A stretch of DNA of 64,000 nt, taken from the IMG/VR virus record IMGVR_UViG_2721755721_000001; one strand, 5' to 3'. This DNA comes from a virus. Its lineage: Duplodnaviria > Heunggongvirae > Uroviricota > Caudoviricetes. A program made the translations under genes and the position numbers. Numbering within the stretch: position 1 is the first letter of the stretch; every line of letters begins with the position of its first letter. Below, one piece after another: positions 1-24,010 of this stretch. The notes under the pieces were generated by a model. The model was given only the letters and a program-made list of their open reading frames with translations. It had not been told where the DNA came from and searched no databases.

Positions 1-849
1 TTAGTCTAAATGTTGAATGTCTTTTAAGAAATCCATGGCGCGGATTCTTGATTGACCATTTATCAGGAAAATATAAGATGATAGTTCTCTTTCTGCAGTG
101 TCATTTTTCATTATTTCGTTTTCATTTTTGCGTAACTTAGTTGACTCTATAGTTTTTATCAGACTATTAATTTTTTCATCAAAACCGATAGGTTTTTTTG
201 TTAATGAAATCTTATTTTTTTCAATAGCGCGACGGATCTTTGCTAGAATTTTGTTGCGGATATTTTCAGGGACATTTTCTGAACTTGAGATAAAGTTATG
301 ATTGCCATTTTTTAATGCTTCATTAATTGCATCATAAGGAGATATATATAAATTACTAGGAGTATTATAGGCTGTTTTGGCGTCACCCAGTGTATTGTTC
401 ACAAAATCTGTGCTCTTAGAAATATAAACTACTCCAACTAGCCCCGAAAAATTCTCCCAGAAAACAGATTCAAGATTCTTGTTGTTTGCATTGACCGCTC
501 TTTTGGCAATGGTCTTTTGTTTATTTAGTTCATTTAAAGTTTTTCTTAGTTCAGAATTTATTGAATTTAATTTTTCTTCTGATTCTTTGTATTGTAAATC
601 AAGTTTGGCAATGCTTCCCTCCAATTCTTTTCGTAAGATTTTATTATTCTCTATAAATTTTTGGGAGTTTTCCATTGCAGTTTTTAATTTATTTAATTCA
701 ACTTCTTTTTTTGCAATTTCTTCTGATAAAAGTTCCTTTTGGTAAATTGGTCTTACTGTATAAAAATATCCAAAAATAGCAAATGCCACCAATACAAACT
801 GTGATACATGGCTAACTCGGCTCAAAAAAACATCAACTTTATTTGACAT
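1..849 (-). CDS. hypothetical protein, 282 aa; N-terminal transmembrane helix, long coiled-coil, C-terminal globular region; AT-rich cargo
   Basis: complete ORF (ATG at 847-849, TAA at 1-3); hydrophobic segment VSQFVLVAFAIFGYFYTV; Lys/Glu/Asn-rich heptad-like stretch; no family recognised. Confidence 0.6.
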   Translation of the reverse strand: MSNKVDVFLSRVSHVSQFVLVAFAIFGYFYTVRPIYQKELLSEEIAKKEVELNKLKTAMENSQKFIENNKILRKELEGSIAKLDLQYKESEEKLNSINSELRKTLNELNKQKTIAKRAVNANNKNLESVFWENFSGLVGVVYISKSTDFVNNTLGDAKTAYNTPSNLYISPYDAINEALKNGNHNFISSSENVPENIRNKILAKIRRAIEKNKISLTKKPIGFDEKINSLIKTIESTKLRKNENEIMKNDTAERELSSYIFLINGQSRIRAMDFLKDIQHLD

Positions 850-1210
850 AACGCCTCTATAAGATTCTCTTTTTATCTACAACATTATAATTTTTTAATG
901 AAAAAAATCATCTAAAAATTAGTTCAAAGCAATACGTTCAAACTGATATTGATGCTTAGGAGCTAATCGGTACGTATTGATGGTACAACAGAAAAGAACA
1001 ATAGAAAGCTTGGGGGCTGACGTTGCTACTGGCGCACATACCCATGTCGTACTAAAAGAGTTCATTTGATTTTATAACTATATCAGCCCGTTATTTTTAT
1101 GTTGATGCGAACAGCCCCGCACGCCTGCCCGCTTCGCTTAACAGACTGGTTTTCATGCACCTCATAAATCGTCTCAGAAGCCACCACACAAGGGCTTTCT
1201 CGTCAAAAAT

Positions 1211-1285: not shown

Positions 1286-1311
1286 GTTAAAAATCCCGGT
1301 ACTCGACCGGG
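1286..1311 (-). terminator. putative intrinsic terminator after ogr-like gene
   Basis: hairpin CCCGGTCGAGTACCGGG then ATTTTTAA on minus strand, 23 nt past the ogr stop. Confidence 0.45.
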
Positions 1312-1333
1312 ATTACGTGGGCGTTTTTTCTAA

Positions 1334-1615
1334 TCAGACAGGAATCTGCTGACGGCTTGACAGTTTTGACGCGGAGCCATAGCGATTGAGCGTTTGCTGT
1401 TGTTTTACCGGGGGGTGTGATTTGTCTGGTTCCTGTTCATTGCGCCGGGGTTTCATGATTATCTTATCCACACTCTCCAGTGCCGTAAATGTGCAGGAAC
1501 ATTCCAGATTCTGGCACTGATACCACGAGCGTTTAACTGACGGAGCTTCATAGGCTGCTGTTCTGGCGTGTGCAACTGTACCGCATTCCGGACATTTAAG
1601 TGCCATTAAAATCAC
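1334..1615 (-). CDS. ogr: Ogr/Delta-family zinc-finger late transcription activator
   Basis: motifs CPECG...HART...YQCQNLECSCTF...ESV...KP match P2 Ogr / P4 Delta as recalled; true start may be internal Met at 1606. Confidence 0.8.
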   Translation of the reverse strand: MILMALKCPECGTVAHARTAAYEAPSVKRSWYQCQNLECSCTFTALESVDKIIMKPRRNEQEPDKSHPPVKQQQTLNRYGSASKLSSRQQIPV

Positions 1616-2163
1616 TCCTGTATATCGTTAATGTCATTCAGGCGTTGCTGAAAATGCAGATGTTGTGCCGGGGTGTAAGAGTCCTGGCAATCACGAATCA
1701 TCCCGGGGTCAGGTATCAAACCGGATTCATCCAGGATCTCACGATAATCCCCGGCAATTTCAGGCGGTGTTATTGCCAGCTGGCGAACCAGAGCACTGCG
1801 TAATATACGGGACGCAACGTCAACCCCTCCGCGCCCCTTCAGGAACGGAGCCAGTGCAGATGTCAGGGCTGCCCCATTCGCCTGCATAAAATTGCTGAGA
1901 GCGGCTTCTGTGCAGGCCTCCATCAGTAAATGCTGCGCGTAAATGCATTCGCGCGCAGCACAGTTAATTTGCCATTTCAGCACATCCAGACGTTCCCGCA
2001 GTAATTCGAGCTGTCGGGCATAATCTGCTGGTTTTTCTGTGGCAGCGAGGAGAGATGTTATCTGTTGTTCAACGGCTTTTCGGCTCTCACTATGTCCGGC
2101 CCACAGAATACGGGCATTCCGAAAACTGGTAAGTGCCTGGTCAGGCGTGCCTCGGGCCGTCAT
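1612..2163 (-). CDS. hypothetical helical protein, 183 aa (Psu-like by size/position only)
   Basis: ORF translationally coupled between upstream 247-aa ORF and ogr; no motif recognised. Confidence 0.45.
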   Translation of the reverse strand: MTARGTPDQALTSFRNARILWAGHSESRKAVEQQITSLLAATEKPADYARQLELLRERLDVLKWQINCAARECIYAQHLLMEACTEAALSNFMQANGAALTSALAPFLKGRGGVDVASRILRSALVRQLAITPPEIAGDYREILDESGLIPDPGMIRDCQDSYTPAQHLHFQQRLNDINDIQE

Positions 2164-2903
2164 ACTGCTTTCTCCTTCTCAGCGAGTTCCTGACGAACCT
2201 TAATTTTATGCATAGCTGCCGGAGAGAGTTGATTACTGAAATCCAGACGCGCCGCATAATCCGGGGCAACTCCCGCCAGTTTAAACACCGGGTCCTGCTC
2301 AGGCATCGCATCGTTAGCCAGAGCCGGTCTGGTGATATGTTTATGAATAAAGTCTTTCAGCACTGTGTCCGGGTCATTAACTGAATTCACCACACCCACA
2401 ACGGCACTGGCTTCCCGGCCCATTGTGGATTTAAGCAGGCTCAGCGTCTGAATAAGCGCTTTTCCATGCGACTGCATAAAATCCTCCCAGATTTGTTTTG
2501 CGCGAATATCCACAAGAATGTTATGCGCGTGGATATACTTTCCGGCTAATTCTGCAGCTTTCTGCGGCAAAAGTGCATTTTCGCTTTCCTGAGCCGCCAG
2601 CAGCTCATCAAAATCCTCAAGCGTTTCTCGTCCCAGCGCAATTTCCGTGCGCAGTTTTTTCATTTCCTTTGAGACCACGCCCTGACTTTCACGAAACAGC
2701 GTGCGCCACTCCTCATTCAGTGTGTTCGTCGTGGCTTCCATTTCAGCGCGACGCTGGCGGATTGTCGCAATATTATCCGCTGCCGCTTTCTGCTGACGAC
2801 GTGCTTCAAGCCATGCGTTTCTGGCTGTGTTCATGGTTTCCAGTGCCCGCTGCGTTACAGCCGGAAAAGTGGAAAGGTTGTTATTTACTGCGGTATTGTT
2901 CAT
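2160..2903 (-). CDS. hypothetical coiled-coil protein, 247 aa (Sid-like by size/position only)
   Basis: ORF downstream of iteron/promoter region and primase; predicted helical/coiled-coil; no motif recognised. Confidence 0.45.
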   Translation of the reverse strand: MNNTAVNNNLSTFPAVTQRALETMNTARNAWLEARRQQKAAADNIATIRQRRAEMEATTNTLNEEWRTLFRESQGVVSKEMKKLRTEIALGRETLEDFDELLAAQESENALLPQKAAELAGKYIHAHNILVDIRAKQIWEDFMQSHGKALIQTLSLLKSTMGREASAVVGVVNSVNDPDTVLKDFIHKHITRPALANDAMPEQDPVFKLAGVAPDYAARLDFSNQLSPAAMHKIKVRQELAEKEKAV

Positions 2904-3303: not shown

Positions 3304-5976
3304 TTAACCCGGCACCTCGCTGTTGAAGACATAGAGCCTGCGGGGATTCATCTCTGGCGGGCGAATGGTTGTCTGGAGTTTGCCATCAGTGGAGGGCAGC
3401 AGGTATCCACGATCTGCGCACAGACGCGCCACCTTGCGCGGGTCAAATCCCCTGCAGATTTCTTTCCAGCCGGACGGCATGACATAGAACGTAGTGACAG
3501 CTTCCGTGCCCTGCGCGGTACTGCCTTTCTCCACCCTTCGCCAGCCCACCATATTGCCGGGGCGGTTGCGCTCGTCATACCAGTCTGCAAAGCGGCTGTA
3601 CTGATTCGCGGTAAAGAAACTGCGAACCTGCTCCAGTGCGGCGATATCTTCCTGATTGGCGGTGTGCCCGCGATCTTTCAGCCATGCGTTCAGGCAGACG
3701 CGGGTTGCCCGCAGTGCTTCACCCTCAGGCCAGCCGGTGATACCCAGACGGGTTGCCAGTTCACCTGCCATCGCCACCAGTGCAAAGCGGTTCACAGCCC
3801 GGCCCACCTGATTGCCTGCATCTTTCGGAGTCAGGGCGGCAGCATATTCCTTCATCAGCGATTTTGCCTGTGCCGTTAGTCCGTTAAGATCAGCGGTCAG
3901 TGCTTTCAGCCACTCCCGGAACGGCGAACCGTAGTAGCAGGACGTGGCCCATTCAAGATGCTCTGCCAGAGCCTTGCCGCTGTCGAAGCCGTGCAGCTCC
4001 TCAAAAACGCCAAACTTCCCGGAATCGCTGGGGATCTGGATCATCCTGACTTCCATCCCGGCAAAAGTACGCTCACCGGCCTTTGCCGCATGTTCGGTCA
4101 GAGACAATTCGCCAGTTGAAAAGAACAACAGGCGCCACTGCTTACGGGTACGCAGCTCACCGTCCGTACCGGCACGGCCCTTGCCCTGACCGTTTGCCAG
4201 CATGTAGGCGATATTGCCTGCCTCGCGTCCGTCAACTTCCCGGATCTCATCAAGCATCATGGCGGCATCGTTGCGGCGGCTGGCGCATCCCTCCAGTGCG
4301 TTGCCGGTGGCCCGCCATGTCTGCCAGTAGTCAGGCCCGCCGCAGACGGAGGTTGCTGCTTTCATGGTGGTGGTCTTACCGTCTGTCGATTCCCCTTTGA
4401 GGTGGTAGCCGCCGCCGTCCATACCAACCAGCCGTAACAGTGGTGCAGCAAAGGCCAGGCTGACAGCAAATGCCACGCGGGAGTTGCCGGTACAGTAGCG
4501 GGATACATGCTCCCGCCATTCCTCTGTTGTGCCCGACACGCGGAAATCACGCCCCTGCACGGAAGTGGTCTGGAGAATGACACCCTCTGCACCTTCACCG
4601 CTGACCTCATCCTGCAGGACGTAAACCTGACCATGCCAGCCAGTACGACTGACGCAGGTCACGCGGCGTTCCGGTTTACACAGTGAGATATATTCCATCA
4701 GGCGTGCGCGTGCCTCACCGGTGGTGCTGATATAAGACAGCCCGTTAACCAGCAGTACCCGGCGCAGTTCCTCACCACTGCCGCTCAGCATTTCCATCGG
4801 CATCGCCCAGCGGCGACACTCACCCCACGTATCTTCCCATTCCAGCAGTCGTCCGAAGTTACCGCCATCGGCATCGCAGGTGATTGCCGTCACGCGCAGC
4901 GGGCTGCATATTTTGACGTTCTGGATCTCCGTCTCACCGTTGCGCTGTACCTGCTTTTCATACCAGAGATATTCCTGGGTAAGACGGAACCCGTGCGGCA
5001 GTTGCGTGCGGCTTTCCCCGCAGAGTACCAGACCGTTGCGAAAGGCTTCACGGGCACGGGTAATACCGTGCTCCCGATGAAAGTCATTCCAGTCAGCCTT
5101 AATCTCTTCTGGTGGCAGCGTCATCCAGCCGCCAACAGCTTTTGCCGCCCGTTCAGCAAAGGCTCTGCCGGGATTCTCACCCCCGTCCTGAAAATCGTTA
5201 TCACCGGCGATGATAATTTTTACCTCAGGCCAGCGTGCCCGCAGCGACTGCGCCACATTGGGCAGGTTGCCCGCAGATATGGCAGCCACTACGCATCCGG
5301 CAGTGAGCTGGCTTACCGTCAGCGCCGTAGCGTAACCTTCGGTAATCACCACCTGTATCGGTGGTTCAGACGGTAACGGGCTGAGCGACACAAACGCGCC
5401 TTTCATCGTGCTGCCGGGCAGTATGCTTTTTTCACCCGTCGGGGCGATAAGCTGTGCACCGGTCACGGCTCCGGTGTTGGTCGTGAGTGGTAACAGCAGG
5501 GAACCGGCAGGAAAATCCTTACCGCTGATATGCTGTACGCTTCCGGTCAGAGAGGCCGGGTATCCGGCGAACCCTTTTCCTGTCAGATAGGCGCTTTCTC
5601 CCGTGTGGCTCTCTTTCATCAGCGCCGCCACGGTAAGACCCATGTCGCGTTTAGGGGCTTTTTGTCTGGCAGGCTTAACAGGCAGTTCCTGCATATCCGG
5701 CACATTAAGCACCTGCGCCACCTCCTGCGCAGCCTTTCTGACGTTGTAACCGGTTACGAGCTTAACCAGATCCAGACCGTCACCATTGCCACACTGGCTG
5801 CAGATCCACGTCCCGCGCCCGTCAAGGTCATCAAGGCGAAAACGATCCTTGCCCCCACATTTCGGGCAGGGACCGTGCCTGCCGTTTTCAGGTACATCAA
5901 TACGCAGCATCTGCAGAATAACGGGCCATTTCCCCCGTGCGGCGGCTGAAACCTGCGTAACCGTCTGTATTGTCAT
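3304..5976 (-). CDS. DNA primase/helicase, P4 alpha-like
   Basis: 890 aa; N-terminal zinc motif CPKCGG...CSQCG; acidic primase-like cluster IIIAGDNDFQDGGENPG; P-loop GESTDGKTT in C-terminal half. Confidence 0.85.
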   Translation of the reverse strand: MTIQTVTQVSAAARGKWPVILQMLRIDVPENGRHGPCPKCGGKDRFRLDDLDGRGTWICSQCGNGDGLDLVKLVTGYNVRKAAQEVAQVLNVPDMQELPVKPARQKAPKRDMGLTVAALMKESHTGESAYLTGKGFAGYPASLTGSVQHISGKDFPAGSLLLPLTTNTGAVTGAQLIAPTGEKSILPGSTMKGAFVSLSPLPSEPPIQVVITEGYATALTVSQLTAGCVVAAISAGNLPNVAQSLRARWPEVKIIIAGDNDFQDGGENPGRAFAERAAKAVGGWMTLPPEEIKADWNDFHREHGITRAREAFRNGLVLCGESRTQLPHGFRLTQEYLWYEKQVQRNGETEIQNVKICSPLRVTAITCDADGGNFGRLLEWEDTWGECRRWAMPMEMLSGSGEELRRVLLVNGLSYISTTGEARARLMEYISLCKPERRVTCVSRTGWHGQVYVLQDEVSGEGAEGVILQTTSVQGRDFRVSGTTEEWREHVSRYCTGNSRVAFAVSLAFAAPLLRLVGMDGGGYHLKGESTDGKTTTMKAATSVCGGPDYWQTWRATGNALEGCASRRNDAAMMLDEIREVDGREAGNIAYMLANGQGKGRAGTDGELRTRKQWRLLFFSTGELSLTEHAAKAGERTFAGMEVRMIQIPSDSGKFGVFEELHGFDSGKALAEHLEWATSCYYGSPFREWLKALTADLNGLTAQAKSLMKEYAAALTPKDAGNQVGRAVNRFALVAMAGELATRLGITGWPEGEALRATRVCLNAWLKDRGHTANQEDIAALEQVRSFFTANQYSRFADWYDERNRPGNMVGWRRVEKGSTAQGTEAVTTFYVMPSGWKEICRGFDPRKVARLCADRGYLLPSTDGKLQTTIRPPEMNPRRLYVFNSEVPG

Positions 5977-6356
5977 ACTTCCCCCTCATACAACGTCACA
6001 CCGGTACTGCAGAAGTCATCAAATGCCGCCGGAAGCGTGCGGTACATCTCCGCCATCACTTCACAGCCGCGCGCGGTCAGTACCGGCGGCGCGGTCAGCA
6101 GTGACGGCTCCAGCATGTCAGTCAGCAGTGCCAGCGCGGCAGCGGCGCCCTGCACTTCGCCGTACTCGTTAATCAGTACGCACTCGATATGCAGCGCAAT
6201 GGCCATTTCAATACGCTCCACCGTCAGGCTGTGCGGACCATACTGATCACTGCCAGTTTCGTTCAGCATTTTCTGCCGCCATGCTGAAGCAATAGCCCGC
6301 CGGTAAAGCGCGGTGGTCATTTCTACCGGGAAAATGGAAACCTGCGGCTGGTTCAT
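5973..6356 (-). CDS. hypothetical protein, 127 aa
   Basis: ORF overlapping primase start by 4 nt in satellite early operon. Confidence 0.45.
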   Translation of the reverse strand: MNQPQVSIFPVEMTTALYRRAIASAWRQKMLNETGSDQYGPHSLTVERIEMAIALHIECVLINEYGEVQGAAAALALLTDMLEPSLLTAPPVLTARGCEVMAEMYRTLPAAFDDFCSTGVTLYEGEV

Positions 6357-6637
6357 CTGGCACCTCCTTCAATCAGTGCGCAGCTGTGTGCAATATCCGT
6401 CAAATCTGCCAGCAGGTACTCCATCAGCGCGGCGACACCAGGCGCACAGCCTGCGTCCAGTGCTCCGGCCTGAGACGGGTATTCAGAAAAGAGAAGCTGG
6501 AGCATGTCGCAGGCATTTCTTGCGCGGGTCAGCTTTCCGAAACTGTCCTCTGACAACCCATAGGCAAAAGCACCGGTATTGTGTTTTTCAGGCAAAGTGT
6601 GGCCCTGAGCACCGTTGTGCCCGTTTGAAATATTCAT
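6353..6637 (-). CDS. hypothetical protein, 94 aa
   Basis: ORF translationally coupled within the same operon. Confidence 0.4.
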   Translation of the reverse strand: MNISNGHNGAQGHTLPEKHNTGAFAYGLSEDSFGKLTRARNACDMLQLLFSEYPSQAGALDAGCAPGVAALMEYLLADLTDIAHSCALIEGGAR

Positions 6638-6668
6638 CGTGGATTACTCCGTTTTCAGCGGTATTTTG

Positions 6669-7058
6669 TCAGAGAAACTTTGAATAGTGACCGTCGTCAG
6701 GCTCAGCAGAACGCCGTATGCTACGCTCCCGCCAGCGGATAAATAGCACAGACGGATGCAGTGTCAGCGGGCCGGAACCACTACCGCCAGCAGGAGCTGG
6801 TGCAGGCTTCAAGAGCGGTACATCAAACAGGCGCGTATACCGCTGTTCAAACCATGCCAGAGGGCAGGAAGAAAGCTTGTTGTCGCTGTCATGACGTATC
6901 AGCACTTCACAGCTGAATTCAGGATTAACCAGCGCCACAGAGGGCGAGGCTTCTATTAATCGGATAATCGTGACCGTCCAGCCACGTTCATGCTGCCAGC
7001 GTTCGCCGGGGTGCGGATAATTACGCATGTTCACCTCCGCAGGGAATGCGCCCGGCAA
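6669..7058 (-). CDS. hypothetical protein, 129 aa (start uncertain)
   Basis: ORF in satellite early operon; alternative internal start MRNYPHP. Confidence 0.4.
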   Translation of the reverse strand: MPGAFPAEVNMRNYPHPGERWQHERGWTVTIIRLIEASPSVALVNPEFSCEVLIRHDSDNKLSSCPLAWFEQRYTRLFDVPLLKPAPAPAGGSGSGPLTLHPSVLFIRWRERSIRRSAEPDDGHYSKFL

Positions 7059-7875: not shown

Positions 7876-8757
7876 CTACCCCTTTTGTTTTAATCCCGCA
7901 TGATTAACCGCTAATCGTAATTTTCTTAAGATTTCTTGTTCATTAGTGATAAATATTGGAGGTAGCTCTCCTAAATGTTTAATTATGGCGTTAGTCCACT
8001 TTTCAGGACTTATCTCTTTTCTTTCACCACGACATTCGCTTGGGTATTTTGCTAATATATATATGGCTGCATTTAATAACCCCTCCCTATTTTTTGCATG
8101 ATGCTCAGCAGTGTTATTTAATCGCTTGGGGATTTTAGGTTCAGATGAAATTCTTTTCGTAAGTAAACTTGGCATAGGAATTCCAGTTTTTACTGATTTC
8201 CATATTAACTCTAAATCTCTTCGCATGATAAGAAGATCTTCAAATGGAATCTTAATTACCTTATTTCCTTCATATGAGGCCGTTGCCATCAAAACATTAT
8301 CTCGTATTTTTACCGGTTTAAGCCTGAATTCATAATCTGGATCTATAGCTAATCCATTTTTTATGTCACTTATCATATCATCGGCGTACCAAATACCACA
8401 GGCAAATCCTATAATTTGAAGCCCATTTTCAAAATGTTCAAAGGAATCATCTTTAAGGTCATACCATATTGTTGAAAATTCCATCTCTAGTGATTGATTA
8501 GTTAATACGGGATGAATTAAGTCAATTTCCATTTTCTGATTTTTATTGAGGAAATTAACATTAAATCTAACTGCAAGTCCATCCGCCTTGAATGCGATAT
8601 TAAAAGCGCCTATTTCGTATAGATGTAATAAATCATCAATCTCGCATTCTAATAGTCTTGAAGCGCGTTCAAATGAACAATATTCTAATGGTGGTATTTT
8701 TTTGTCAATCCATAGATTTCCTAAGAATATAGTTTCATTCTCTGTTGAATGCTGCAT
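7876..8757 (-). CDS. hypothetical protein, 293 aa; AT-rich cargo between int and alpA
   Basis: complete ORF starting 30 bp after the int stop; GC well below flanking genes; no family recognised. Confidence 0.6.
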   Translation of the reverse strand: MQHSTENETIFLGNLWIDKKIPPLEYCSFERASRLLECEIDDLLHLYEIGAFNIAFKADGLAVRFNVNFLNKNQKMEIDLIHPVLTNQSLEMEFSTIWYDLKDDSFEHFENGLQIIGFACGIWYADDMISDIKNGLAIDPDYEFRLKPVKIRDNVLMATASYEGNKVIKIPFEDLLIMRRDLELIWKSVKTGIPMPSLLTKRISSEPKIPKRLNNTAEHHAKNREGLLNAAIYILAKYPSECRGERKEISPEKWTNAIIKHLGELPPIFITNEQEILRKLRLAVNHAGLKQKG

Positions 8758-10122: not shown

Positions 10123-10334
10123 TTATACCATCACGAGGTTGTAATGTCATGAAATTAACTGAAATGAAAATCAGGCCGATTCGGTGATAACTTACTGTTT
10201 TTTTAAGTGGTTATGTAATGAAGTGAAATGTAGAGAAAGGTCTTTAAAGTGTCCCCTGCAGACATCTACTTGAGGCAGCAGGGGATTGATTGGAATGGTG
10301 TTTTTTAGGTGTGAGAAATATTTTACCCGCTATT

Positions 10335-15682: not shown

Positions 15683-15815
15683 TCTTTGGGACTCCTGGCT
15701 GATTAAGTATGTCGATAAGGCGTTTCCATCCGTCACGTAATTTACGGGTGATTCGTTCAAGTAAAGATTCGGAAGGGCAGCCAGCAACAGGCCACCCTGC
15801 AATGGCATATTGCAT
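15651..15815 (-). CDS. cIII: cIII (FtsH inhibitor)
   Basis: 54 aa [54 protein letters not shown] matches lambda cIII. Confidence 0.9.
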   Translation of the reverse strand: MQYAIAGWPVAGCPSESLLERITRKLRDGWKRLIDILNQPGVPKNGSNTYGYPD

Positions 15816-15887
15816 GGTGTGCTCCTTATTTATACATAACGAAAAACGCCTCGAGTGAAGCGTTATTGGTATGCGGTAAAGCCGCAC

Positions 15888-23736: not shown

Positions 23737-24010
23737 TTGACGCGATGATTTATTCGGGGCTATATTCCTCACGCGCCAGCAAAATCTGGCGTCGGGATTG
23801 GCGTCCTGGATAGAGACCGCGACAGATACACGCCGCGAGCGTGTTTTTTATTGTCGTATGCACGCGCACATCTGAATTATGGTGGGCTGTGTGGGGGCGG
23901 AGAGATCCGCGCCGGTCGGTTTCCCGGTTACGCCAACCCTGCACAGTTCACCACCAGACGATTGGCGTCGTCGGTGGTGAGTTATTAAGAAACCACCAGA
24001 GGGCGTCATT

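What the first reader, a model, noticed from the sequence alone, without database searches (positions are those of the whole stretch)
1..849. AT-rich TM plus coiled-coil protein at the distal end of the satellite late operon
Directly after the ogr/delta-like gene and its terminator lies a very AT-rich complete ORF (282 aa) with an N-terminal TM helix, a long Lys/Glu/Asn-rich coiled-coil and a C-terminal globular region. The position downstream of the late operon is equivalent to the P4 hotspot that holds abortive-infection cargo. The architecture (membrane anchor, coiled coil, effector-like C-terminus) recurs in abortive-infection proteins. The window starts at its stop codon, so any partner gene to the left is unseen.
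Basis: partly seen in the sequence, partly recalled or inferred. Interest (0 to 1): 0.65.

Follow-up and report, generated by a model that had tools for sequence, protein, structure and literature searches.

The report
Orphan membrane-protein pair in satellite hotspot
The AT-rich gene at the window's left edge is real and is the first of two paired genes for membrane-anchored, probably periplasm-facing helical proteins with no known relatives, carried as rare swappable cargo in the anti-phage hotspot of an E. coli P4-like phage satellite; its function is untested.

Summary
Window 1-849 (-) is an intact 282-aa ORF at 30% GC, against 51-59% in the satellite core. It has one N-terminal TM helix, a roughly 120-residue coiled-coil stalk and an all-helical head. 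It starts just past the cos-like site, where near-identical satellites switch to unrelated cargo. Only 7 of 5426 complete E. coli genomes carry it, so it is cargo and not a core gene.

Extending leftward in an identical genome shows the unseen partner: a 234-aa gene 16 nt downstream, followed by a strong hairpin and, about 630 bp further, the att repeat. The two proteins share only a paralogous N-terminal TM module. That module is almost invariant across 738 database clusters from diderm bacteria, while the stalks and heads diverge.

Positive-inside charges, even cysteine counts and an invariant Cys pair in the partner point to an N-in, C-out topology. No Pfam, NCBIfam, PADLOC, PDB-sequence or fold match exists, and no enzymatic domain was found.

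My best reading is a new envelope-level anti-phage cassette. This is inferred from context only. Relatives sit in P4-like hotspots, beside NACHT/STAND genes, and in the repressor-integrase operon of 186-like prophages.

The parts
1..849 (-). Gene A: 282-aa bitopic membrane protein (RefSeq WP_000066845.1, 'hypothetical protein'), first gene of a two-gene cassette
694..849 (-). Codons 1-52: conserved N-terminal module (short cytoplasmic tail, TM helix about aa 14-33 at nt 751-810, juxtamembrane 'RPIYQKELLSEEIAKKE'). Invariant in the family: Q17 L20 A24 F26 G27 Y28 F29 Y30 T31 V32 P34 Y36 Q37 L41 E43
391..744 (-). Codons 36-153: long helical coiled-coil stalk, fast-evolving (34-44% aa identity to orthologues over aa 53-125)
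13..375 (-). Codons 159-279: all-helical head with no cysteine. Conserved positions E132, P171, Y172, A174, P194, K213, L216. No fold relative found
850..1107 (-). AT-rich leader of the cassette with a GAGG ribosome-binding site 5 nt before the ATG. Promoter-like hexamers at 1105-1077 are no more frequent than in shuffles
1108..1140 (.). cos-like sequence (reverse complement AAGCGAAGCGGGCAGGCGTGCGGGGCTGTTCGC, aligns with P4 cos AAGCGGGCGGGCGAGGCGGGGAAAGCAC). It is the last sequence shared with sister satellites, so it marks the hotspot boundary
1287..1314 (-). Terminator-like hairpin (9 bp, AAUCCCGGU/ACCGGGAUU) plus U-run after the delta gene
1334..1615 (-). Ogr/Delta-like zinc-finger activator gene of the satellite (RefSeq start at 1606)
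1612..2903 (-). psu (1612-2163) and the Sid/Psu-like gene (2160-2903): conserved satellite late genes upstream of the cargo

Best explanation
ORF282 (A) is the first gene of a mobile two-gene cassette. Gene B (234 aa, WP_001095698.1) lies just left of the window. The cassette is exchangeable cargo in the cos-proximal hotspot of an 11.6-kb P4-like satellite integrated at tRNA-Arg (argW). Both products are single-pass inner-membrane proteins with the N-terminus in the cytoplasm. Each extends a long coiled-coil stalk and a small helical head into the periplasm. They share one highly constrained TM/juxtamembrane module and differ entirely in the head. I propose that the pair acts at the cell envelope in inter-virus competition. 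The variable periplasmic heads would recognise something a phage brings into or does to the periplasm, such as the tail tip, ejection proteins or wall damage. The conserved TM module would be the common output, either disturbing the inner membrane or blocking genome passage. Shown: the gene is real and under protein-level selection; it is hotspot cargo; the A-then-B operon is conserved; the module superfamily and its mobile-element contexts exist. Inferred from indirect evidence: the N-in/C-out topology. Pure inference: the anti-phage role, the division of labour between head and module, and the output.
For: Cargo status: the homology break lies right after cos. Other cargo occupies the same slot in near-identical satellites. 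The gene is in 7 of 5426 genomes. GC is 29-30%. The att repeat delimits an 11.6-kb element. Operon: B starts 16 nt after A and is followed by a 12-bp hairpin (dG -21.4, z -5.9). The A-then-B order with 9-16 nt spacing is kept at 43-52% identity in Enterobacter, Cronobacter and Citrobacter P4-like elements, and in a K. pneumoniae islet beside a NACHT/nSTAND NTPase. Module: A and B are 49% identical over aa 4-56 (E 1e-12) and homologous only over the first 70 profile columns. The module profile finds 738 cluster representatives at E<=1e-3 and 461 at E<=1e-10. Module pN is 0.065-0.11, against 0.34-0.51 for stalk and head, with saturated pS. Topology: the N-flank has K+R 4.3 against D+E 1.6, and the C-flank 2.1 against 2.7; many homologues have poly-Lys/Arg tails. 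Cysteine counts in the C-terminal parts are 0:63, 2:68 and 4:21, against 1:7 and 3:8. C84 and C121 are the only invariant residues of the B family outside the module. All 19 genome loci are from diderm lineages. Defence-like context: neighbours include caspase, DUF4062, DUF2971-TPR, DEAD/ResIII helicase and AAA_15+DUF3696. A third head type is the last gene of the repressor-integrase operon of 186/P2-like prophages. Literature prior: the P4 hotspot holds anti-phage systems (PMC9122126), and 6 of 8 randomly chosen unknown P4 loci protected against phages (PMC13586616).
Against: There is no experimental evidence of any phenotype. There is no match to any of 5027 PADLOC models, and no enzymatic or pore-forming fold. 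The topology is inferred, not measured, and the A head has no cysteines to support it directly. Some distant module proteins sit in contexts with no defence flavour: beside nif genes, or as the last gene after an RND efflux pair. So the module itself need not be immune-specific. A and B each also occur alone, so they may not be obligate partners. The gene is rare, and a frameshifted 50-aa allele exists (P0088). The cassette was not found among the systems tested by Rousset et al., so there is neither positive nor negative published data.
Confidence: 0.5

Rival explanations
1. One reading: a cytoplasm-facing abortive-infection protein. The TM helix is only an anchor, and the coiled coil and C-terminal domain sit in the cytoplasm, where the head acts as sensor or effector and kills the infected cell.
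For: Hotspot position. Membrane proteins are common effectors in known systems from the same hotspot, such as Gop, RT-nitrilase+1TM and hydrolase+3TM (PMC9122126).
Against: The positive-inside charge bias, the even-cysteine bias and the invariant Cys pair of B all indicate periplasmic C-terminal parts. The TM module, not the head, is the most constrained part. No enzymatic fold was found.
Confidence: 0.12
2. Pure superinfection exclusion. The pair is a passive periplasmic barrier or decoy that blocks DNA injection of particular phages, as T4 Imm/Sp or HK97 gp15 do, without any signalling or membrane damage.
For: Periplasm-facing bitopic architecture. A relative lies in the lysogenic repressor-integrase operon of 186-like prophages, a classic place for exclusion genes.
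Against: A mere anchor would not be the most conserved part of the protein across phyla, with invariant polar and aromatic TM residues. No similarity to any known exclusion protein. Absent from 50,697 sequenced phage genomes.
Confidence: 0.18
3. Not defence. The pair is envelope cargo serving another purpose: tuning helper-phage lysis (spanin- or antiholin-like), immunity to periplasm-acting toxins (CDI/Rhs/T6SS), a host-fitness 'moron', or a toxin-antitoxin addiction pair that stabilises the satellite.
For: The type II TM + periplasmic coiled-coil layout resembles the i-spanin Rz, with a weak PHROG Rz-like hit (E 0.0084). Pantoea and Burkholderia relatives lie next to CDI/RHS toxin loci. Some distant relatives are in housekeeping-looking contexts. 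P4 Gop/beta is a precedent for a toxic membrane protein with a neutraliser.
Against: The Rz hit is coiled-coil noise, far below significance. There is no o-spanin or lysis-cassette neighbour, and the gene is absent from phage genomes. It is dispensable for the satellite family (7 of 851 satellite-bearing genomes). Most sampled contexts are defence-like.
Confidence: 0.2

Closest known systems
P4 gop-beta-cII (Rst_gop_beta_cII), the cargo of the reference P4 hotspot
   Same: Same genomic slot (cos-proximal region between psu/delta and att/int), low GC, multi-gene cassette. Gop is a small membrane protein with a coiled-coil segment (sequence in Table S2A of PMC9122126).
   Different: No sequence similarity. 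Gop has 2 TM helices and partners with soluble proteins. Here there are two single-pass paralogue-headed proteins, both apparently periplasm-facing. PADLOC models for the Rousset systems do not match.
Membrane 'effector' partners of hotspot systems (RT-nitrilase+1TM, hydrolase+3TM, 2TM-1TM-TIR; Rousset et al. 2022)
   Same: Hotspot cargo that includes TM proteins, one of them with 1 TM plus a coiled coil.
   Different: Those TM proteins accompany an enzymatic sensor or signal generator. This cassette has no enzymatic component at all.
Phage i-spanin Rz
   Same: Type II (N-in/C-out) single TM, periplasmic coiled coil and functionally important cysteines. Weak PHROG hit.
   Different: Rz is about 150 aa, lies in a lysis cassette with an o-spanin lipoprotein gene, and is found in phages. 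This family is 230-285 aa, has a helical head and no lipoprotein partner, and is absent from 50,697 phage genomes.
Superinfection-exclusion proteins acting in the envelope (T4 Imm/Sp, HK97 gp15, P22 SieA); named from general knowledge, not tested by sequence beyond the library scans
   Same: Small membrane-anchored proteins of mobile elements that act before or during genome entry. Expression from a lysogenic operon is seen for the 186-like prophage relatives.
   Different: No homology. None has a phylum-spanning conserved TM module or a 17-nm stalk.
FtsB/FtsL (DivIC family) divisome pair
   Same: Two bitopic N-in/C-out proteins with TM plus a juxtamembrane coiled coil that pair through these regions. 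Sub-threshold DivIC Pfam hits occur in a few module proteins.
   Different: The hits are below the gathering score and driven by architecture. The motifs differ, the genes are accessory and horizontally mobile, and the periplasmic parts are much larger.
Envelope-sensing defence systems Zorya and Kiwa (from general knowledge)
   Same: The proposed logic: detect phage-induced events at the envelope through inner-membrane proteins.
   Different: No similarity to ZorA/B or KwaA/B models in PADLOC. There is no motor or soluble effector component.

Membership tests
Cargo of the P4-like satellite defence hotspot (Rousset et al. 2022; Moura de Sousa et al. 2026) | Lies between the late genes/cos and att-int of a P4-like element | tested here: met
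   The order in the element is int - alpA - primase - sid-like - psu - delta - cos-like - A - B - att repeat.
Cargo of the P4-like satellite defence hotspot (Rousset et al. 2022; Moura de Sousa et al. 2026) | The slot content differs among satellites with near-identical core genes | tested here: met
   The core is 98.5-98.9% identical, yet the cargo is AAA+S8 peptidase, DprA+PRTase or another hypothetical protein. The break is at window ~1108.
Cargo of the P4-like satellite defence hotspot (Rousset et al. 2022; Moura de Sousa et al. 2026) | Confers phage resistance when cloned | not testable with these tools
   The accessions are absent from the held supplements, and the motif is absent from the tested-system sequences. 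Table S1 of PMC9122126 was truncated when stored.
Any catalogued defence system (PADLOC-DB v2.0.0) | Significant match to a system's protein model | tested here: not met
   A gave only coiled-coil noise (JetC E 0.021). B gave nothing. 101 superfamily members gave only SMC-like coiled-coil hits.
   A single hydrophobic helix at aa ~14-33.
   No Pfam, NCBIfam, PDB or fold match. Charge and cysteine statistics place the domain in the periplasm.
   This needs infection time courses at high and low multiplicity.
Two-component spanin (i-spanin Rz) | Type II TM plus periplasmic coiled coil | tested here: inconclusive
   The architecture is compatible. The PHROG Rz-like hit has only E 0.0084.
Two-component spanin (i-spanin Rz) | Adjacent or embedded o-spanin lipoprotein gene within a holin-endolysin cassette of a phage | tested here: not met
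   The neighbours are delta and gene B, with no lysis genes. The family is absent from 50,697 phage genomes.
   It is present in 7 of the 851 genomes that carry this sid/psu/delta block. No structural PHROG match.

The most novel reading that the evidence does not exclude
The conserved 'FGYFYTV-P-YQKELL' TM module defines a previously undescribed, widespread class of envelope-level immune proteins of diderm bacteria (at least 738 clusters at 50% identity). These would be single-pass inner-membrane proteins whose interchangeable periplasmic heads (A-, B-, C-type and others) detect phage components during tail penetration, before the genome reaches the cytoplasm. Their shared TM module would execute a common response. 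P4-like satellites and 186/P2-like prophages would carry them as competing-virus exclusion cargo.
Probability: 0.2. Interest if true: 0.8.

Novelty: new variant of a known kind. Interest (0 to 1): 0.55.

Why it matters
P4-like hotspots are a proven source of new immune systems. Almost all known systems act in the cytoplasm and contain a recognisable enzyme or NTPase. A cassette made only of two periplasm-facing, non-enzymatic helical proteins would point to defence, or another virus-host interaction, at the stage of envelope penetration, which is poorly understood. The shared TM module is more conserved than the rest across phyla and absent from Pfam, NCBIfam and PADLOC. It gives a simple handle (one 60-residue profile) for finding hundreds of related genes, and it offers a testable hypothesis: conserved output, variable sensor. 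If the cassette proves not to be defensive, the result still defines a large unannotated family of bacterial envelope proteins that travels on satellites, prophages and plasmids.

Tried and rejected
- Family libraries (Pfam, NCBIfam, PHROGs, PADLOC) for A, B and the second AT-rich ORF gave only coiled-coil noise: SMC, JetC, DUF745, Rz-like.
- Pfam and PADLOC scans of 101 diverse module proteins found no domain in any member.
- PDB sequence-profile searches for A and B gave nothing below E 0.02.
- hhalign of A against B detected no homology beyond the first 70 columns.
- The promoter/terminator scan gave promoter-like sites at chance frequency and no terminator under its strict rule. Hairpins were then checked by folding.
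- The upstream leader alignment showed a shared TTGATT-17-TATAAT only between the Enterobacter and Klebsiella copies, with no clear conserved promoter in the window copy.
- Literature: the accessions are in no held paper. They were also not found in the held supplements of Rousset 2022 or DefensePredictor. No supplements are held for the 2026 NAR paper.
- My first att search pattern had a one-base error and found nothing. An exact-repeat script then found the 21-bp att repeat.
- I considered that B's diverged module variant (FTIFYTVIPIYQNA) occurs only when paired with A. This was rejected as a rule, because one E. coli element has that variant directly after Ogr_Delta with no A upstream, although the contig ends just after it.
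- The module-profile word-index search returned mainly short fragments and added little.

Full report
**1. The observation**

Window 1-849 holds an intact minus-strand ORF that starts with ATG and encodes 282 aa. Its TAA stop is the first three bases of the window. GC is 30.0%. The adjacent sid/psu/delta genes have 51.3%, the primase 58.8% and the window as a whole 51.7%.

The protein has a single hydrophobic segment at about aa 14-33. Heptad periodicity across aa 36-153 is 0.431, against 0.282 +/- 0.048 in shuffles, with 3 of 500 shuffles as high. An AlphaFold2 model built on 31 homologues has mean pLDDT 88. It shows one continuous helix from aa 3-153 followed by a compact all-helical head at aa 159-279.

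The three upstream genes are a Sid/Psu-like protein, Psu (E 3e-44) and an Ogr/Delta zinc finger (E 7.5e-16). A 9-bp GC-rich hairpin with a U-run follows delta.

**2. Where the window comes from and what lies to the left**

Sixteen bases after its stop comes a second gene on the same strand, of 234 aa (WP_001095698.1). This is followed by a perfect 12-bp hairpin with dG -21.4 kcal/mol and z -5.9.

About 630 bp further left is a 21-bp copy of the 3' end of tRNA-Arg. The tRNA itself lies beyond the integrase. The two copies delimit an 11.6-kb element, the size of P4. In the window's own strain a lambdoid prophage is inserted in tandem to the right of the satellite.

**3. It is hotspot cargo, not a core gene**

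A total of 851 of 5426 complete E. coli genomes share the sid/psu/delta block, but only 7 carry ORF282.

Homology to the other satellites stops at window ~1108. This is immediately after a sequence that aligns with the P4 cos site, AAGCGAAGCGGGCAGGCGTGCGGGGCTGT against the P4 sequence AAGCGGGCGGGCGAGGCGGGGAAAGCAC.

Sister satellites with 98.5-98.9% identical late genes hold other cargo in the same slot:
- an AAA ATPase plus an S8 peptidase
- DprA plus a phosphoribosyltransferase
- a different hypothetical protein

This matches the cos-proximal hotspot described by Rousset et al. (PMC9122126). In this satellite subtype the integrated att site separates the cargo from int. Their 'psu to integrase within ten genes' extraction may therefore have missed such loci. 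That last point is my inference.

**4. The gene is under selection and travels as a pair**

Full-length relatives form a small family of 62 clusters. They are mostly from Enterobacterales and none is named.

The A-then-B arrangement, with 9-16 nt between the genes, recurs in several settings:
- Enterobacter hormaechei, at 52% identity
- Cronobacter, at 43% identity
- a Citrobacter P4-like element, between Ogr_Delta and int at the same yfdC/argW locus
- a Klebsiella pneumoniae chromosomal islet next to a NACHT/nSTAND NTPase and IS remnants

A alone occurs in a Pantoea island with an integrase, AAA_15+DUF3696, an RNA ligase and Ogr_Delta. B alone occurs in Pectobacterium beside a RES-domain gene and in a Klebsiella indica P4-like element.

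**5. A shared, unusually constrained N-terminal module**

A and B are 49% identical over aa 4-56 (E 1e-12). Profile-profile comparison finds homology only in the first 70 columns.

Within the A family the region SQ..LV..AIFGYFYTV.P.YQKELL.E is invariant or nearly so, while the rest falls to 23% identity.

Between the E. coli copy and five orthologues, the non-synonymous difference in the module is 0.065-0.11. Synonymous sites there are saturated (0.63-0.85). The stalk and head show 0.34-0.51. The conservation therefore acts on the protein. It is not a DNA element or a product of recent recombination.

A 60-position profile of the module finds 738 cluster representatives at E<=1e-3 among 1.84 billion, and 461 at E<=1e-10. 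Nearly all are 200-350 aa with the module at the N-terminus. Their C-terminal parts fall into at least three large groups: A-type, B-type and a further 'C-type'.

None of 101 diverse members has any Pfam domain or PADLOC match beyond coiled-coil noise.

**6. Topology**

Three indirect lines agree on a cytoplasmic N-terminus and a periplasmic stalk and head.
- Residues before the TM helix carry on average 4.3 K+R against 1.6 D+E, and many homologues have poly-Lys/Arg tails. The 15 residues after the helix carry 2.1 against 2.7.
- Cysteine counts in the C-terminal parts are strongly even: none in 63 proteins, two in 68 and four in 21, against one in 7 and three in 8.
- In the B family, at 19-78% identity, the only invariant residues outside the module are C84 and C121. 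This is as expected for a structural disulfide.

All 19 loci recovered from species-representative genomes belong to diderm lineages: Gamma-, Beta- and Alphaproteobacteria, Ignavibacteria, Bacteroidota and Planctomycetota. The one monoderm-labelled hit is a 1.7-kb MAG contig and is probably misbinned.

This is not a measurement. I put N-in/C-out at about 0.8.

If it is correct, the stalk of A would hold the head well out into the periplasm. It is roughly 75-120 residues long, or 11-18 nm, depending on how far the last helix packs back. That length estimate is my inference.

**7. No known relative**

Searches of the following gave nothing informative:
- Pfam, NCBIfam, PHROGs and PADLOC
- PDB sequence profiles
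- BFVD

The matches are generic helical ones. No phage genome among 50,697 encodes a relative of A, or of a prophage-borne C-type member. Two Burkholderia conjugative plasmids carry module proteins in a region with IS3, DUF6602 and RHS genes.

**8. Context of distant relatives**

Neighbours of module genes in Beta- and Alphaproteobacteria include a caspase-like peptidase, DUF4062+OST-HTH, DUF2971+TPR, a DEAD/ResIII helicase and an SDH-type ClpP-like protease.

In IMG/VR, a C-type module gene is the last gene of the repressor-(orf)-integrase operon of 186/P2-like prophages. It overlaps the 3' end of int, opposite a Cox-like excisionase and a CII-like activator. That position implies expression in the lysogen.

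Other contexts have no defence flavour. One gene lies beside nif genes in a sulfate-reducer-like contig. Another directly follows an RND efflux pair in Pseudodesulfovibrio.

**9. Interpretation**

Three things are shown:
- a real, selected, rare two-gene cassette in the satellite's exchangeable hotspot
- two bitopic proteins with a common, strongly constrained TM module and unrelated helical heads
- a large unannotated superfamily that travels on satellites, prophages, plasmids and defence-island-like regions

The published prior is favourable. Six of eight randomly chosen unknown P4 loci protected E. coli against phages (PMC13586616).

I therefore commit to an envelope-level anti-phage role, with confidence about 0.5. 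The TM module is conserved across phyla while the heads are interchangeable. This fits 'common output, variable sensor' better than a passive anchor. I rank a sensing-plus-membrane-output mechanism above pure superinfection exclusion (0.18). None of these mechanisms is demonstrated.

**10. Novelty and score**

The kind of thing, swappable cargo of the P4 hotspot with a membrane component, is known. The content is not. There is no enzymatic partner, both proteins probably face the periplasm, and the module is absent from all libraries searched. I rate it a new variant of a known kind, with interest 0.55.

The most novel reading that the evidence does not exclude is a widespread class of periplasmic phage sensors with a shared TM output module. 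I give that probability 0.2, and interest 0.8 if true.

Noticed in passing
window 7876-8757 (-): A second AT-rich orphan gene (293 aa, GC ~0.34-0.39) lies between the integrase and alpA. It has no Pfam, NCBIfam or PADLOC match. A sister satellite has a different 274-aa protein at the same place, so this may be a second variable cargo slot of the satellite.
   Followed up: partly
window ~10244-10256 and 10335 onward: A partial att copy (GTGTCCCCTGCAG) lies to the right of the satellite integrase. It is followed by a lambdoid prophage: torI, ERF recombinase, anti-RecBCD, kil and cIII. So there is a tandem satellite-plus-prophage array at tRNA-Arg (argW). No tRNA gene lies inside the window.
   Followed up: partly
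window 15770-15828 (-), 23760-23958 (+): Rfam matches in the neighbouring prophage: the lambda CIII thermoregulator (88.5 bits), isrK (75.5 bits) and C4 antisense RNA with its a1/b1 targets. No Rfam family matched inside the satellite or the finding.
   Followed up: no
window 2160-2903 (-): The gene RefSeq calls 'septation initiation protein' matches the Psu family over its C-terminal half (E 1.8e-9) and sits where P4 sid would be. It looks like a Sid/Psu paralogue, so the RefSeq name is probably misleading.
   Followed up: no
window 1-849; NZ_CM166345.1 1623556-1624413: A frameshifted allele exists. A 50-aa product (P0088, MSNKV...IAKKRS) is recorded on 49 contigs. In strain CH4811 the locus is 2 nt shorter and annotated as two hypothetical proteins.
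   Followed up: partly
L047, L049, L050 (IMG/VR prophage contigs), about 5965-6774: A 264-268-aa protein with the same TM module but a different, Cys-containing head is the last gene of the repressor-integrase operon of 186/P2-like prophages and overlaps the end of int. It is absent from E. coli complete genomes and from sequenced phages.
   Followed up: partly
L030 7001-7633 (Pseudodesulfovibrio indicus): A 210-aa module protein starts 20 nt after an RND efflux pair (membrane-fusion protein plus ACR_tran), where an outer-membrane factor gene might be expected. This could hint that the module family has non-immune envelope roles.
   Followed up: no
window 1108-1140: The satellite's cos-like core (GGCGTGCGGGGCTGTTCGC) differs at several positions from the P2/P4 cohesive end (GGCGAGGCGGGGAAAGCAC). 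This suggests a helper with a different cos specificity.
   Followed up: no
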